DNA of 48,830 nt from Corallococcus sp. AB045 (GCF_003668895.1 NZ_RAWN01000061.1:1-48830); one strand, 5' to 3'. Counted from the first letter of the stretch, positions 13,361 to 19,447 are shown. Translations and numbers: made by a program. Notes: generated by a model from the sequence alone, not told the origin.

Positions 13361-13555
13361 ATGAAGGAGCCCGGCTGGAAGCCACTGGAAGCTTCGGTGC
13401 TGCGCGAGCGGCTGGAAGAGGTGAAGGCCTTGCTGCTCCAGGCGGCGGCGGTGGGCGTGGCCCAGGACGCCGAGCGGCTGGAGAAGCTGATGGAGCTGGA
13501 ACAACGCACCCGGGAGGACGCGCGTGGCCGAGTTCAACGACGCCGCTATCGCTGA
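13361..13555 (+). CDS. Small charged helical/coiled-coil protein (64 aa).
   Basis: ATG 13361 lies 5 nt after the spike stop. It overlaps the next gene by 32 nt in another frame. The composition is coiled-coil-like (LRERLEEVKALLLQ...ERLEKLMELEQRTRE). Confidence 0.4.
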   Translation: MKEPGWKPLEASVLRERLEEVKALLLQAAAVGVAQDAERLEKLMELEQRTREDARGRVQRRRYR

Positions 13556-15134
13556 GCTCCACGGCGCGCTGGAGGTCTGCTGCGAGGAGCTGGCGAAGGC
13601 GCTGGAGGATGCGGAAGGCACGGACACCACCGGCGCTGACGCCGGGGCCGGGCCTGCGTGGCGGCCGCTGCTGATCGGCGTGCCGCCGGGGCTGGAGCAG
13701 CTGGTGGGCATCGTCAAGCCGCCGCTGCAGATCATCATCGCGGTGCTCCAGTTCGTGCAGGCGCTGCTCCAGGCGCTGGCGGCCATCCTCCTGGGGCTGC
13801 CGGATCCGTTCCGGGCGCTCATCCTCGCGGCCTACGAACTGCTCAAGGACATCATCAACGACCTGCTCAACGCGGGTGCGTACCTCTACGCGGACGCGCC
13901 GGGCATCAGTCCCACGGAGACGAACCTGGCGGAGACGGGCTTCATCCCGAACATCCCCAAGGACTTCAAGGCGGGCTTCGCGCTGGAGCGCCCGCCGGTG
14001 ACGCCGGATGGCTTCGCGCGCTGGGCGGGGCGGTTCGTCGCGTCCTTCGATGATCCGGGGGACGACTCGCGCCCGACGGTGACGGATGGCGCGCCGGTGC
14101 AGGCGGTGTTCATCGTGATGGCGGCGCCGTCGCTGGATGCGCTCCGGCAGGCGCTGTACCTGCTGGGCAAGCTGCTCAACATCAGCGCGTTCAAGAAGGC
14201 GTTCGAGAAGTACCCCAAGGGCGCGTTGGATCCGCGCCGCAGCCGGGCGCGTGGCCGGCCGGTGAAGCCGGATTGGAAGTCCGCGCGCATGCGCGACCTG
14301 TTCCCGGACCTGGAGAAGCTGCTCATCCTCCCGGAGGCGCTCAGGGCGCTGCTCCTGTCGGTGGACAACCTGGCGACGCTCCTGCGGAGCCTCGCCGCCG
14401 CGATGCAGGACAAGGTGCAGGTGTTGATGAAGCTGGCGCAGGCGGTGCAAGCCATCATCGACCTGCTGAACGCGCTCAAGTCCGCGGGCATGTACGCGCT
14501 GCCGGTGTCCACGACGGGCGGCGTGGCGGGGTTGAAGCAGGCCTTCCTCACTGCGACGAACCGGCCGCCGGGCGGCTACGTGGGAGGCATCTGCCTGCTG
14601 GCGGCGGGGCCCAACCTGGCGAAGGCCGCGATGCTCTGGGAGCTGCTGGGCCTGTCCGCCGCGATGGAGCTGGCGTCGGGAGACCTCACGCTCCAGGACG
14701 TGAAGAAGGCCCTGGAGGAGAGCCAGGCGGCGCAGGTGCTGGAGGCGAACACGGACGAGGTGAAGGACGCCTGGGGCAACCTGAAGACGACGGCCCAGAA
14801 GCAGGCGGACAAGTTCGTGAACGCGGTGGAGAAGGCGCCTGAGAGGTTCGTGAAGGCGGTGGGGCGCACGCCAGATGAACTGAAGGCCGCCGCCGAGCGA
14901 GGCCGCTCCACGCTGGTGGAGGTGCTGGACCAGTCGAAGGAGCACGTGGAGGAACAGAAGGAGATCCTGGAGGGCATGCTGTCCACGAAGCACTCCCAGC
15001 GTCGGGGAGGGCGTTCGCTGGCGATCGGCTTCGGAGGTCCCGGCGCGTCCGAGCGCCCGCCGAGTCCGCAGCCCCCCGCGGCTGACACGTCCACGCCGAC
15101 ACCGACCCCGCCGAAGAAGGGAAGCGGCCCGTGA
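13524..15134 (+). CDS. Hypothetical predominantly alpha-helical protein (536 aa). A tape-measure/assembly-like role is speculative.
   Basis: GTG start 13524 with GGGAGGA 8 nt upstream. It is Leu/Ala-rich and helical with a C-terminal Pro/Thr-rich tail. The stop overlaps the next start (GTGA). Confidence 0.6.
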   Translation: MAEFNDAAIAELHGALEVCCEELAKALEDAEGTDTTGADAGAGPAWRPLLIGVPPGLEQLVGIVKPPLQIIIAVLQFVQALLQALAAILLGLPDPFRALILAAYELLKDIINDLLNAGAYLYADAPGISPTETNLAETGFIPNIPKDFKAGFALERPPVTPDGFARWAGRFVASFDDPGDDSRPTVTDGAPVQAVFIVMAAPSLDALRQALYLLGKLLNISAFKKAFEKYPKGALDPRRSRARGRPVKPDWKSARMRDLFPDLEKLLILPEALRALLLSVDNLATLLRSLAAAMQDKVQVLMKLAQAVQAIIDLLNALKSAGMYALPVSTTGGVAGLKQAFLTATNRPPGGYVGGICLLAAGPNLAKAAMLWELLGLSAAMELASGDLTLQDVKKALEESQAAQVLEANTDEVKDAWGNLKTTAQKQADKFVNAVEKAPERFVKAVGRTPDELKAAAERGRSTLVEVLDQSKEHVEEQKEILEGMLSTKHSQRRGGRSLAIGFGGPGASERPPSPQPPAADTSTPTPTPPKKGSGP

Positions 15135-18501: not shown

Positions 18502-19229
18502 GCGCACTTCCTCCAAGACAGCGATTGGGCCACCTGGTGCGTTCCCTCTCGAAACACCTCCCGGGCCAGCTCGACGGCCTGTTGGAGAACGCTCGGTTCC
18601 AGGACGGCGCCGCGGCGCTCCAACGGCTGGCGGACCCGGCGCACGTGGAGAAGGCCCTGGCACGCATGTCGCCAGAAGAAGCCGGCTGGCTCGCGGACCT
18701 GCTTGCCGAGCGCTGGTCATGGATCGCGGACGTCCAACTGGATCCCGAAGTGGCCATCGTCGCGCCGGACGAACTCTGGGTAGGCGCGGAGCCCATCCGC
18801 CTGCCGTTGTCGCTCGCGGCGGTGGGACTGGACGAAGGGTTCGAAGCCGTCTGGGAAGGCGCGGTGCTCCCAGGTCCACCCGCGTCCAGTGCCACGCTCC
18901 TCGCGAGGCCTCCCGAAGGCAAGGCCCCCGGAATCGCCCGGGTTCGGGCCCAGGTCCGCGCGAGCGTGAAGGGCCAGCGCTGCGTGCTCATCGCGCAGGC
19001 GCAGGTCGCGCTGAGGAGACCGTCGGTGGTGGTGAGCGACGACCGGCGCAGGCTCCTGGCCCAGGACCACACGGGGCGCCCGGCGGTGGGCTGCCGTCTG
19101 GAGATCGGCCCGGACACCCACGTGACCGGCACGGGAGGCCTGGTCGAGCTGGAAGTCCCAGCCCAGCCCGGCGCATCGCTCAAGCTGGAAGGCATCCCCG
19201 CCGGCCGCATTCCAGGAGGCAATCCATGA
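18498..19229 (+). CDS. Hypothetical protein (243 aa).
   Basis: ATG 18498 is coupled to the upstream stop. It is in frame with ORF 18342..19229. The stop overlaps the next start (ATGA 19226-19229). Confidence 0.55.
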   Translation: MSALPPRQRLGHLVRSLSKHLPGQLDGLLENARFQDGAAALQRLADPAHVEKALARMSPEEAGWLADLLAERWSWIADVQLDPEVAIVAPDELWVGAEPIRLPLSLAAVGLDEGFEAVWEGAVLPGPPASSATLLARPPEGKAPGIARVRAQVRASVKGQRCVLIAQAQVALRRPSVVVSDDRRRLLAQDHTGRPAVGCRLEIGPDTHVTGTGGLVELEVPAQPGASLKLEGIPAGRIPGGNP

Positions 19230-19447
19230 AGACAATGACGCCCCAGACGCGGAAGACGCCCGACCGCAAGCCCGCCATGAACAAGGCCATCGCGCCCTCG
19301 CAGCAGCCCAAGACGGACACAGCCAGGGCCCAGCTGGGAGCCGCGGCCAAGGGGCCCACGATGAAGGCCGCGGCCGGTGGCAGCTTCAAGGCGAAGAGCG
19401 CGCCCCGGGTCGCGGCGAACCCCAGCATCCGGATGCCGAAGAAGTAG
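19226..19447 (+). CDS. Small basic Ala/Lys-rich protein (73 aa). It is the last gene of the plus-strand operon.
   Basis: ATG 19226 has AGGAGG 7 nt upstream and ATGA overlap with the previous stop. It is in frame with ORF 18719..19447. Confidence 0.45.
   Translation: MKTMTPQTRKTPDRKPAMNKAIAPSQQPKTDTARAQLGAAAKGPTMKAAAGGSFKAKSAPRVAANPSIRMPKK

What the first reader, a model, noticed from the sequence alone, without database searches (positions are those of the whole stretch)
13361..19447. Six uncharacterised, translationally coupled genes downstream of the spike, including a 403-aa proline-rich disordered protein
The block comprises a 64-aa coiled-coil protein, a 536-aa helical protein, a 720-aa protein, a 403-aa Pro-rich disordered protein, a 243-aa protein and a 73-aa basic protein. 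All are linked by 4-nt start/stop overlaps, so they are made stoichiometrically with the baseplate parts. None matches a family I can name. The helical 536-aa protein sits where a tape-measure-like component might be expected. The long disordered protein (17290..18501) is unusual for a structural operon.
Basis: inference. Interest (0 to 1): 0.55.

Follow-up and report, generated by a model that had tools for sequence, protein, structure and literature searches.

The report
Unnamed conserved genes behind eCIS spike
Six real, co-transcribed genes of unknown function follow the spike gene of a myxobacterial phage-tail-like injection system; two of them trace back to an unnamed phage baseplate gene pair, the other four have no detectable relatives outside this system, and all appear to be fixed parts of the machine rather than its toxins.

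Summary
Six ORFs (64, 536, 720, 403, 243 and 73 aa) lie at the stated coordinates in a Corallococcus genome. All are conserved and under purifying selection. Four of the five junctions are 4-nt overlaps; the 64/536 junction overlaps by 32 nt. None matches Pfam, NCBIfam, PADLOC, PDB sequences or Serratia Afp1-16.

The locus carries eCIS markers: a Tail_P2_I baseplate protein, a DUF6519 fibre, a gp5/V-type spike and an Afp15-like AAA ATPase. Relatives carry DUF4157 (eCIS_core) toxins.

The first five genes keep the same order behind the spike across Myxococcota. The genes after them change: annexin giant, DUF4157 toxin plus Imm33, or nothing. So the block is lineage-specific core, not cargo.

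The 536-aa protein is probably not a tape measure. Its core, with an invariant SFDDPGDxxRP motif, is homologous to proteins in seven uncultivated phage contigs (E 1e-22 to 1e-42). There it follows a small helical ORF in the baseplate module, and one contig has its own tape measure.

The 720-aa family has only 72 representatives among 1.84 billion. No phage or Afp relative was found for the 720- or 243-aa proteins. The 403-aa protein has conserved ends around a fast-evolving Pro/Arg-rich linker.

Biochemical roles remain inferred. AF2 models were weak, and the sheath and tube genes lie outside the window.

The parts
13361..13555 (+). g64: 64-aa helical protein, Arg/Glu/Leu-rich. Small partner ORF whose 3' end overlaps the g536 start by 32 nt.
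   Evidence: Translation. Orthologues occur in every related locus at 62-72 aa. Ka/Ks 0.17-0.27. A small helical ORF of about 54-80 aa, with an N-terminal Trp motif in most copies, sits in the same position before the g536-like gene in the six phage contigs that could be read there. Homology to those ORFs is not statistically shown.
13524..15134 (+). g536: 536-aa protein. It has a hydrophobic helical segment (res 60-103), an alpha/beta core with the invariant SFDDPGDxxRP motif (to about res 365), and a lineage-specific amphipathic helical tail followed by a Pro-rich end.
15131..17293 (+). g720: 720-aa orphan protein. It has N-terminal helices, a central long-helix region (about 183-391) and a beta-rich C-terminal half. 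YPDG(S/T)LRxLR and RPGELLLxRG motifs are conserved.
   Evidence: 11 clusters in the word-indexed search. 72 representatives among 1.84 billion proteins, all about 690-870 aa when complete. No Pfam hit in 48 members. No PDB sequence hit. AF2 pLDDT 55.9. Foldseek PDB E at least 0.16. No viral relative.
17290..18501 (+). g403: 403-aa protein. It has a conserved N-terminal helix (about res 4-50, DDxFxVAALLxELDRVLHPL...PPLPPxLP), a fast-evolving Pro/Arg/Ala-rich linker, and a conserved basic C-terminal stretch of about 50 aa.
   Evidence: Alignment of 14 orthologues, 351-453 aa; a 509-aa version occurs in L027 and an uncalled open frame in L028. Ka is 4-7 times that of neighbouring genes, with Ka/Ks 0.42-0.44. 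No family hit.
18498..19229 (+). g243: 243-aa protein with a helical N-terminal domain and a beta-rich C-terminal domain. The C-terminal domain is missing in the 179-aa L016 version.
   Evidence: Alignment A3. HMM hits in L014 and L016; homologous-looking sequences in L027 and L028 read by eye only. Ka/Ks 0.16-0.22. No Pfam, PDB or viral hit and no similarity to Afp16.
19226..19447 (+). g73: 73-aa Ala/Lys/Pro-rich basic protein, the last gene of the plus-strand operon.
   Evidence: Orthologues in 10 Corallococcus loci. The N-terminal MKTM(S/T)P motif and the composition are also kept in the ORFs at the same position in L012 and L013. Ka/Ks 0.28-0.36. Not seen in L016, L027 or L028.
12169..13356 (+). 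Context: 395-aa V/gp5-type central spike (OB fold plus beta-helix plus a hydrophobic C-terminal extension), with no gp27-like half.
   Evidence: Phage_base_V 8.8e-24, Gp5_trimer_C, Gp5_C. The spike profile aligns only to residues of about 370-585 of the eCIS, T6SS and T4 spikes 7aef_q, 7b5h_AJ, 9rce_F and 1k28. It is homologous to the spikes encoded directly upstream of the g536-like genes in L019 and L022.
11619..12172 (+). Context: two small conserved genes between fibre and spike, 114 aa (11619-11963) and 70 aa (11960-12172). They travel with the module.
   Evidence: Orthologues of both in L012, L013, L016 and L017; the 70-aa gene also in L014 and L015. The 70-aa protein gives weak DUF6897 / MM0924-family hits, below cut-off.

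Best explanation
The block is the conserved, lineage-specific core of a Myxococcota contractile-injection (eCIS-type) system. It is not the system's payload.

g64 and g536 form a two-gene cassette that was inherited together with the V/gp5-type spike from myophage baseplate modules. g536 most likely sits at the hub/spike end of the baseplate. Its hydrophobic helices and alpha/beta core (SFDDPGDxxRP motif) would anchor it there. Its N-terminus, one internal loop and its C-terminus would be free to carry extra domains, which here is a roughly 170-aa amphipathic helical tail. g64 would be its small helical partner or chaperone.

g720, g403 and g243 are co-inherited orphan proteins. They probably supply inner-baseplate, hub or tube-lumen assembly functions that canonical eCIS cover with recognisable proteins: the gp27 half of the spike, the tape measure and the cap adaptor. 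g403 has conserved ends and a long extended linker, so it is the best candidate for a lumen-filling or length-related component. g73 is a small basic add-on confined to Myxococcaceae.

Shown: the genes are real, co-oriented and conserved. The locus carries eCIS markers. The g536 core is homologous to phage baseplate-module proteins. The downstream genes vary while the block does not.

Inferred: physical location in the particle and every individual role.
For: 1. eCIS context.
- Tail_P2_I plus kelch protein and a DUF6519 giant protein. DUF6519 is the eBAP5 fibre anchor and an eCIS marker according to PMC12923769.
- A Baseplate_J gene lies directly upstream of the P2_I gene in relative L018.
- A gp5/V-type spike.
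- An AAA+WHD ATPase whose best plasmid hits are the ATPases of Serratia AFP-type clusters and Streptomyces.
- eCIS_core (DUF4157) proteins sit next to the module in L027 and L028.

2. Constant block, variable neighbours.
- g64, g536, g720, the disordered-linker gene and g243 keep the same order behind the spike in Corallococcus, Minicystis and five metagenomic contigs (L012, L013, L016, L027, L028); L015 ends inside the g720 gene. g536 identity falls to about 40% across these.
- What follows differs: an annexin giant on the same strand (L016), a 1479-aa eCIS_core protein plus Imm33 (L027), a convergent FGE/261/175/annexin operon (window, L001-L005, L012), or none of these in the Corallococcus loci that extend past g73 (L006, L008-L011).
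- The 261- and 175-aa proteins are only about 50% identical between Corallococcus sub-clades in which g720 is about 91% identical.

3. Purifying selection on all six genes.

4. Phage origin of the spike, g64 and g536 genes.
- hmmsearch E 1e-42 to 1e-22 to proteins on the IMG/VR contigs, with an invariant SFDDPGDxxRP motif.
- In L019 the order is TMP (PhageMin_Tail), HP1_ORF34-like, 256 aa, V spike, small ORF, g536-like, gp25, J, I.
- In L022 the order is spike, small ORF, g536-like, then gp25 and a wedge protein further on.
- In L023 and L024 Baseplate_J follows two genes later.
- Jumbo-phage versions carry a roughly 500-aa insertion at one loop, and in L023 six Ig-like domains at the N-terminus. 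This is typical of an exposed virion protein.
Against: - There is no direct evidence that any of the six proteins is in a particle.
- The sheath, tube, gp25 and a gp27-like hub were not seen, because they lie outside the window. I could not retrieve the upstream DNA.
- No relative of g720 or g243 was found in phages or among Serratia Afp1-16; g403 and g73 were tested only against the family libraries and by jackhmmer over the fetched loci, also without result. A structural role for these four therefore rests only on co-inheritance.
- The AF2 models are of low to moderate confidence (pLDDT 65.6 and 55.9). Negative fold searches therefore carry little weight.
- A hydrophobic hairpin plus a lipid-binding-like amphipathic tail in g536, and the position immediately after a spike gene, would also fit a spike-borne membrane-active effector.
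Confidence: 0.55

Rival explanations
1. Spike-borne effector module. As in T6SS vgrG islands, the genes after the spike would encode payloads and their helpers. g536 would be a membrane-inserting or pore-forming effector riding on the spike tip. g64 would be its chaperone. g720, g403 and g243 would be further cargo or loading adaptors. The disordered g403 would resemble the unstructured N-terminal packing signals of eCIS cargo.
For: - The block lies directly downstream of the spike, with tight coupling.
- g536 has a 44-residue strongly hydrophobic segment. Its C-terminal tail gives only apolipophorin-like and alpha-synuclein-like amphipathic-helix hits.
- g403 is basic and disordered.
- None of the proteins resembles a canonical structural part.
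Against: - Order and content are fixed over about 40-60% protein identity, while the genes immediately downstream are swapped (annexin, DUF4157 plus Imm33, or none).
- Ka/Ks is 0.14-0.45 and no immunity-like partner was recognised within the block (no family hits).
- g536-like genes lie inside phage baseplate modules, between the spike and gp25/J. Phages have no use for a polymorphic toxin there.
Confidence: 0.2
2. g536 is the tape measure of the system. It would be a long helical protein threaded through the tube that sets tail length.
For: - A weak hit to phrog_305, tail length tape measure (6e-5), also seen for the L019 homologue (7e-5).
- Its size (536 aa) is close to Serratia Afp14 (583 aa).
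- Its length is conserved at about 480-610 aa across 84 clusters.
- It has hydrophobic helices, as tape measures do.
Against: - L019 has a separate 850-aa PhageMin_Tail tape measure upstream of the hub and spike, and its g536-like gene comes after the spike.
- Phage homologues range from 312 to 1563 aa through domain insertion and Ig-like arrays. That is not ruler-like behaviour.
- The AF2 model has a beta-sheet core.
- hhalign against Afp14 gives probability 0.2%.
Confidence: 0.07
3. The block is unrelated to the injection machine. It would be a passenger operon, for example a regulatory or cell-envelope function, that happens to be fused to the tail operon in this lineage.
For: No detectable homology to any known CIS part was found for g720, g403, g243 or g73.
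Against: - The block is never seen apart from the fibre and spike genes in any contig examined.
- Starts and stops overlap, with no internal promoter or terminator.
- g536 has phage baseplate-module relatives.
Confidence: 0.05

Closest known systems
Extracellular contractile injection systems (Serratia Afp, Photorhabdus PVC, AlgoCIS, Anabaena tCIS)
   Same: - Tail_P2_I and Baseplate_J wedge proteins.
- A giant fibre with the DUF6519 (eBAP5) anchor.
- A central spike with a gp5-type OB fold and beta-helix.
- An Afp15-type AAA ATPase.
- Toxin-like genes at the operon end, including DUF4157/eCIS_core in relatives.

   Different: - The spike gene sits after the fibre rather than before gp25.
- The spike lacks the gp27-like half that Afp8, Pvc8, Alg8 and All3320 have.
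- No recognisable Afp14 tape measure lies between fibre and cargo, and the only Pvc16_N signal is weak and below cut-off. That stretch holds eight unnamed genes plus the spike instead.
- None of g536, g720 or g243 resembles the Afp parts tested (HMMs against Afp1-16; hhalign of g536 against Afp14, g243 against Afp16, and g720 against Afp8, Afp11 and Afp14).
Simple myophage baseplate modules (P2 V-W-J-I, Mu gp45-48), as seen in uncultivated contigs L019 and L022
   Same: A V-type spike is followed by a small ORF and a g536-like protein in the same gene neighbourhood as gp25, J and I.
   Different: - In the phages the cassette lies between V and W. In the myxobacterial system it has moved with the spike to the far side of the fibre gene.
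- In the myxobacterial system it is followed by four orphan genes that are absent from the phage contigs.
- The cassette is absent from P2 and Mu themselves, as far as I know from memory (not tested).
- It was not found in 50,697 deposited phage genomes by tblastn.
T6SS vgrG-chaperone-effector islands
   Same: A spike gene is followed by a small protein and a larger protein with hydrophobic helices.
   Different: - There is no DUF4123, DUF1795, DUF2169 or PAAR signature.
- The content is fixed rather than polymorphic.
- Homologues lie in phage baseplates.

Membership tests
eCIS locus (Afp/PVC type) | Contractile sheath and inner tube genes | not testable with these tools
   The window starts at the Tail_P2_I gene. 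The upstream DNA could not be fetched. None of the window proteins scanned with Pfam gives a sheath or tube hit.
eCIS locus (Afp/PVC type) | Baseplate wedge proteins (Baseplate_J / Tail_P2_I) and a fibre with an eCIS baseplate-anchor domain | tested here: met
   Tail_P2_I 4e-07 and DUF6519 4e-09 in the window. Baseplate_J-like protein (E 0.0016, below Pfam cut-off) upstream of the P2_I gene in L018. DUF6519 is eBAP5 (PMC12923769).
eCIS locus (Afp/PVC type) | VgrG-like spike (gp27 + gp5 OB + beta-helix) | tested here: inconclusive
   The OB fold and beta-helix are present. The gp27-like half is absent from this protein. It may be encoded elsewhere.
eCIS locus (Afp/PVC type) | Afp15-type AAA+ ATPase | tested here: met
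   AAA 1e-24 plus WHD in the 30888-33329 minus-strand gene. The best plasmid matches are the ATPases of Serratia AFP-like clusters, 37-46% identity over the AAA core.
eCIS locus (Afp/PVC type) | Pvc16_N/DUF4255 cap protein | tested here: inconclusive
   The only signal is a weak Pvc16_N hit (8.5e-4, below cut-off) at the C-terminus of the ATPase. BLASTP against Serratia Afp16 is negative. g243 against Afp16 gives hhalign probability 0.2%.
Tail tape measure protein (for g536) | Recognised TMP domain, an essentially all-helical extended protein, and being the only such gene in the tail module | tested here: not met
   No Pfam TMP family is hit, and phrog_305 gives only 6e-5. The AF2 model contains a five-stranded sheet. 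L019 carries both a PhageMin_Tail TMP and a g536-like gene. hhalign against Afp14 is negative.
   No hit at E up to 1 in Pfam or NCBIfam. The g536, g720 and g243 family HMMs against Afp1-16 give noise only. hhalign is negative. Structure-based tests were limited by weak models.
Unnamed 'SFDDPGD' spike-adjacent baseplate family (g536-like; defined here) | Hydrophobic helical segment followed by an alpha/beta core with SFDDPGDxxRP; encoded in a tail or baseplate module after a small helical ORF | tested here: met
   hmmsearch E 1e-42 to 1e-22, with the invariant motif. Context is given.

The most novel reading that the evidence does not exclude
The Myxococcota lineage would be an eCIS variant whose tip and inner parts are built differently. 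It would have a gp5-only spike, a spike collar made of g64 and g536 that is shared with a scattered set of myophages and jumbo phages and has never been described, and four orphan proteins replacing the canonical gp27 hub, tape measure and cap adaptor. Among them, a roughly 350-510-residue Pro/Arg-rich disordered protein with conserved ends would act as a non-helical lumen filler or length ruler.
Probability: 0.25. Interest if true: 0.7.

Novelty: new variant of a known kind. Interest (0 to 1): 0.5.

Why it matters
eCIS are being engineered as programmable protein-delivery devices, and their parts lists are assumed to be the sixteen Afp/PVC genes. This is a phylum-wide lineage in large-genome predatory bacteria. 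In it, about 6 kb of conserved operon between spike and payload has no counterpart in those lists. One of its components points to an unrecognised baseplate gene pair that also occurs in uncultivated phages, including contigs of 190-420 kb.

If these proteins are structural, they would show alternative ways to build the spike and hub region and possibly to set tail length. If instead they ride on the spike, they would be a new conserved class of membrane-active payload. Either result would improve eCIS annotation, since all these genes are currently labelled 'hypothetical protein'.

Tried and rejected
- Pfam, NCBIfam, PHROGs and PADLOC scans of all six proteins gave no family. The only signal was a weak PHROG tape-measure hit for g536.
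- PDB sequence-profile searches with the g720, g536, g243 and mixed phage/myxobacterial g536 alignments returned only coiled-coil noise.
- A Pfam scan of 48 members of the g720 family found nothing.
- AF2 on g720 (12 sequences) gave pLDDT 55.9. The Foldseek PDB hits were small beta-barrels (HerA, UPF1) at E of at least 0.16, so they are not usable.
- Repeating the word-indexed search with a broader g720 alignment returned the same 11 proteins.
- I tested whether g720 holds gp5-like OB folds, because of the motifs 'PGHVAHVGGDRP' and 'RPGELLLVRG'. hhalign against the spike profile and against Afp8 gave probability below 0.1%, so I dropped the idea.
- g720 and g243 compared with the phage proteins that follow g536-like genes gave no similarity. 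g536 against g720 gave none either.
- g720 and g243 have no relatives in IMG/VR.
- tblastn of three phage g536-like proteins against 50,697 deposited phages gave no match.
- Attempts to reach the DNA upstream of the window failed. These were a metagenome scan, a viral scan and an exact-protein look-up with the P2_I protein. A second metagenome scan gave only two short contigs, one of which showed the Baseplate_J-like gene.
- Homology of g64 to the phage small ORFs did not reach significance in jackhmmer.
- The apparent ATPase-Afp16 fusion suggested by a tblastn piece running into afp16 was not backed by BLASTP.
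Full report
**What is there**

The window is about 70% G+C. Its nearest relatives are Corallococcus genomes, with the 720-aa protein 80-96% identical.

Third-position G+C periodicity and ORF structure give one long plus-strand operon:
- 108-3980: 1290 aa, Tail_P2_I plus kelch.
- 3977-11590: 2537 aa, DUF6519 plus beta-helix.
- 11619-11963: 114 aa.
- 11960-12172: 70 aa.
- 12169-13356: 395 aa, Phage_base_V plus gp5 beta-helix.
- Then the six ORFs of the finding, at exactly the stated coordinates.

Four of the five junctions inside the block are ATGA or GTGA overlaps. 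The 64-aa and 536-aa genes overlap by 32 nt, and a 4-nt gap separates the spike from the 64-aa gene. No sigma-70-like promoter, and no plus-strand terminator, lies in 11400-20000.

The operon ends at 19447. A convergent minus-strand operon follows:
- 19879-21393: FGE-sulfatase/HEAT.
- 21393-22178: 261 aa.
- 22175-22702: 175 aa.
- 22715-30856: 2713 aa with annexin repeats.
- 30888-33329: AAA+WHD ATPase.

**Are the six ORFs genes?**

Yes, on three lines of evidence.
- All six have syntenic orthologues in 11 Corallococcus genomes.
- Independent gene callers predicted the same series in metagenomic and genomic relatives at 40-60% identity.
- Ka/Ks against two Corallococcus species is 0.14-0.45 for every gene.

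The 403-aa ORF has poor codon periodicity because of its composition (17.6% Pro, 13.9% Arg). Its frame nevertheless stays open in 14 genomes while its length varies from 351 to 453 codons, and to 509 in L027.

Its N-terminal helix (DDxFxVAALLxELDRVLHPL...PPLPPxLP) and its basic C-terminal stretch of about 50 residues are conserved. The middle evolves 4-7 times faster than neighbouring genes.

The 73-aa Ala/Lys/Pro-rich protein keeps its MKTM(S/T)P start, composition and position as far out as the two JGI contigs L012 and L013.

**What kind of locus is it?**

Several independent markers place it with extracellular contractile injection systems.
- Tail_P2_I and a DUF6519 giant protein. DUF6519 is the eBAP5 baseplate-anchor domain of eCIS fibres and is used as an eCIS marker (PMC12923769).
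- A Baseplate_J gene directly upstream of the P2_I gene in relative L018.
- A gp5/V-type spike.
- An AAA ATPase whose best plasmid matches are the ATPases of Serratia AFP-type clusters and of Streptomyces.
- Proteins with the eCIS_core (DUF4157) domain next to the module in relatives L027 and L028, one of them followed by an Imm33-like gene. DUF4157 and annexin are both listed as eCIS-associated by Geller et al. (PMC8213781).

The sheath and tube genes are not in the window, and I could not obtain the upstream DNA. 'Contractile' therefore rests on these markers.

**Core or cargo?**

The series is small ORF, 536-aa-like, 720-aa-like, disordered-linker gene, 243-aa-like. It is present in that order behind the spike in Corallococcus, Minicystis rosea and five metagenomic contigs (L012, L013, L016, L027, L028); L015 ends inside the 720-aa-like gene.

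The genes after it differ between lineages:
- an annexin giant on the same strand (L016);
- a 1479-aa DUF4157 protein plus Imm33 (L027);
- a convergent FGE/261/175/annexin operon (window, L001-L005, L012);
- none of these in the Corallococcus loci that extend past the 73-aa gene (L006, L008-L011).

Even within Corallococcus the DNA just after the 73-aa gene is unrelated between species. The 261- and 175-aa proteins are only about 50% identical between sub-clades where the 720-aa protein is about 91%.

A fixed block followed by a variable tail is the pattern of core followed by payload. This is the main argument that the six genes, or at least the first five, belong to the machine.

**The 64/536 pair**

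The 536-aa family has 84 clusters, all from Myxococcota or metagenomes, 484-607 aa when complete, and none with a Pfam domain.

A degenerate-pattern scan of IMG/VR with the family alignment found distant relatives on seven viral contigs. A family HMM scores them at E 1e-42 (L019), 3e-32 (L022), and 1e-22 to 1e-27 (L021, L023, L024, L034). L020 scores only 5e-05. The match covers residues of about 55-380 and includes an invariant SFDDPGDxxRP motif.

The contexts are tail modules.
- L019: PhageMin_Tail tape measure (850 aa), HP1_ORF34-like baseplate protein, 256 aa, Phage_base_V spike, small ORF, 536-like (312 aa), gp25, Baseplate_J, Tail_P2_I.
- L022: gp5-like spike, small ORF, 536-like (379 aa), three further genes including an HNH endonuclease, gp25, wedge protein.
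- L023 and L024, from contigs of 211 and 192 kb: small ORF, 536-like, two genes, Baseplate_J.

The spikes of L019 and L022 are themselves homologous to the window spike.

In every one of the six contigs that could be read upstream, an ORF of about 54-80 aa abuts or overlaps the start of the 536-like gene. Most begin with a Trp-containing motif followed by a helix, as the 64-aa protein does. The resemblance is positional and by pattern only; jackhmmer did not reach significance.

The large-phage versions have a roughly 500-aa insertion at the loop that is also the lowest-confidence part of the AF2 model of the 536-aa protein. L023 adds six Ig-like (ASH/HYDIN/DUF1573) domains at the N-terminus. 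I read this tolerance of insertions and Ig-like arrays as a sign of an exposed position.

The myxobacterial protein adds a C-terminal tail of about 170 aa. It is amphipathic and helical, gives only apolipophorin-like and alpha-synuclein-like noise hits, and ends in a Pro-rich stretch. Its only strongly hydrophobic stretch is residues 60-103, which is part of the region shared with phages.

**Tape measure?**

The 536-aa protein does not behave like one.
- The weak phrog_305 hit (6e-5) may reflect the hydrophobic helices (my reading; not tested).
- L019 has a real tape measure as well as the 536-like gene.
- Family members vary from 312 to 1563 aa by domain gain.
- The AF2 model, of moderate quality, has an alpha/beta core.
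- hhalign against Serratia Afp14 is negative.

**The other four proteins**

The 720-aa family is small. It has 11 clusters in the word-indexed search, even with a broadened profile. It has 72 representatives among 1.84 billion in the exhaustive HMMER search, nearly all about 690-870 aa when complete.

No member has a Pfam domain. No PDB sequence matches. There is no viral relative. The AF2 model is poor (pLDDT 55.9), showing only a confident helical region at about 200-335 and a beta-rich C-terminal half. Fold hits are not significant.

The 243-aa protein likewise has no Pfam, PDB, viral or Afp16 similarity.

The 536-, 720- and 243-aa families show no similarity to the Afp proteins of a Serratia AFP-type cluster fetched for comparison.

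**A gap the orphans could fill**

The spike profile aligns only with the C-terminal OB-fold and beta-helix half of the AlgoCIS, Anabaena tCIS, T6SS and T4 spikes, at residues of about 370-585 of those chains. This lineage's spike therefore lacks the gp27-like hub half.

No recognisable tape measure lies between fibre and payload, and the only cap signal is a weak Pvc16_N hit. These functions may be encoded upstream of the window, or be supplied by the orphans. I could not decide which.

**Most likely mechanism**

Part of this is shown and part is inferred.

Shown:
- A co-transcribed, conserved, lineage-specific block sits next to the spike of an eCIS-type locus.
- Its first two genes derive from a phage baseplate cassette.

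Inferred:
- The 64/536 pair assembles at the spike and hub end of the baseplate. The 536-aa hydrophobic helices would be buried against the spike, perhaps against its unusual hydrophobic C-terminal extension, or kept soluble by the 64-aa partner.
- The 720-, 403- and 243-aa proteins are inner-baseplate, tube-lumen or assembly components.
- The 403-aa protein, with two conserved ends joined by a long extended basic linker, is the best candidate for a lumen-filling or length-related part.

I put about 0.55 on 'fixed machine parts'. I put about 0.2 on a conserved spike-borne effector module, about 0.07 on the tape-measure reading of the 536-aa protein, and about 0.05 on an unrelated passenger operon.

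**Comparison and novelty**

The system works like, and by its markers belongs with, eCIS. It departs from the Afp/PVC plan in three ways: gene order (the spike follows the fibre), spike architecture (no gp27 half), and eight unnamed conserved genes that flank the spike between the fibre and the payload, none of them a recognisable Afp14 or Afp16; the Afp15-like ATPase lies in the convergent operon.

The 536-like family with its small partner is an unnamed gene pair of phage baseplate modules. I found no solved structure, no Pfam entry and no annotated phage genome for it.

I class the finding as a new variant of a known kind. It is moderately interesting.

**Limits**

- Both structure models are weak, so negative fold searches count for little.
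- The phage relatives come from a scan that needs the exact SFDDPGD motif, so the family's true spread is unknown.
- No experiment or proteomic data set was available.

Noticed in passing
window 19491-19819 (and 66-76): A 110-bp unit is repeated 3.0 times (97% matches) in the gap between the end of the plus-strand operon and the convergent operon. Each unit contains the 27-nt palindrome AAACCTGTCCGACAGTCGGACAGGTTT and folds into a long hairpin (-56 kcal/mol, z -2.6). The core CTGTCCGACAG also occurs at 66-76, just upstream of the P2_I gene start. With one mismatch allowed there are 15 matches in the window against 1.8 expected. There is no Rfam match. The repeat is absent from the fetched loci of other Corallococcus species apart from a 43-nt partial match in L003; the sequence just after the 73-aa gene, inspected in five of them, is unrelated.
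   Followed up: partly
window 41214-43490 (+): A 758-aa protein gives strong Major Vault Protein hits (MVP_shoulder 5e-45; Vault repeat domains). It is a bacterial vault-protein homologue about 8 kb beyond the injection-system locus.
   Followed up: no
window 22715-30856 (-): A 2713-aa protein with annexin repeats (1e-21) is the likely payload. It is directly fused into the same-strand operon in distant relative L016. It is absent from the flanks of the Corallococcus loci that extend past the 73-aa gene (L006, L008-L011). Geller et al. list annexin as an eCIS-associated eukaryote-like domain.
   Followed up: partly
window 12169-13356 (+): The spike has only the OB-fold and beta-helix half of eCIS/T6SS spikes, with no gp27-like domain. 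It ends in a conserved, hydrophobic extension of about 95 aa (res about 300-395) with no family match.
   Followed up: partly
window 30888-33329 (-): The Afp15-like AAA+WHD ATPase (813 aa) gives a weak Pvc16_N hit (8.5e-4, below cut-off) at residues 737-812. It might be a cap-like domain fused to the ATPase. BLASTP against Serratia Afp16 does not support this.
   Followed up: partly
window 19879-22702 (-): An FGE-sulfatase/HEAT protein (504 aa) travels with the system in L012, L013 and L028. The adjacent 261- and 175-aa proteins diverge much faster than the core, at about 50% identity between Corallococcus sub-clades. This resembles accessory or immunity-type genes.
   Followed up: partly
window 1-107: The first 107 nt look intergenic. 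A stop falls at about 62 in one frame, the CTGTCCGACAG palindrome is present, and a minus-strand ATG at 46-44 is possible. In this genome the P2_I gene may therefore open the operon. In relative L018 a Baseplate_J gene overlaps the P2_I gene start instead.
   Followed up: partly
L021, L023, L024 (IMG/VR contigs of 424, 211 and 192 kb, 32-34% G+C): Very large uncultivated phage contigs encode 824-1563-aa versions of the 536-like protein. They have a roughly 500-aa insertion, and in L023 six Ig-like domains. Each is preceded by a protein of about 1900-2050 aa with no family assignment (only a marginal unknown-function PHROG hit in L023) and a small ORF of about 70-80 aa.
   Followed up: partly
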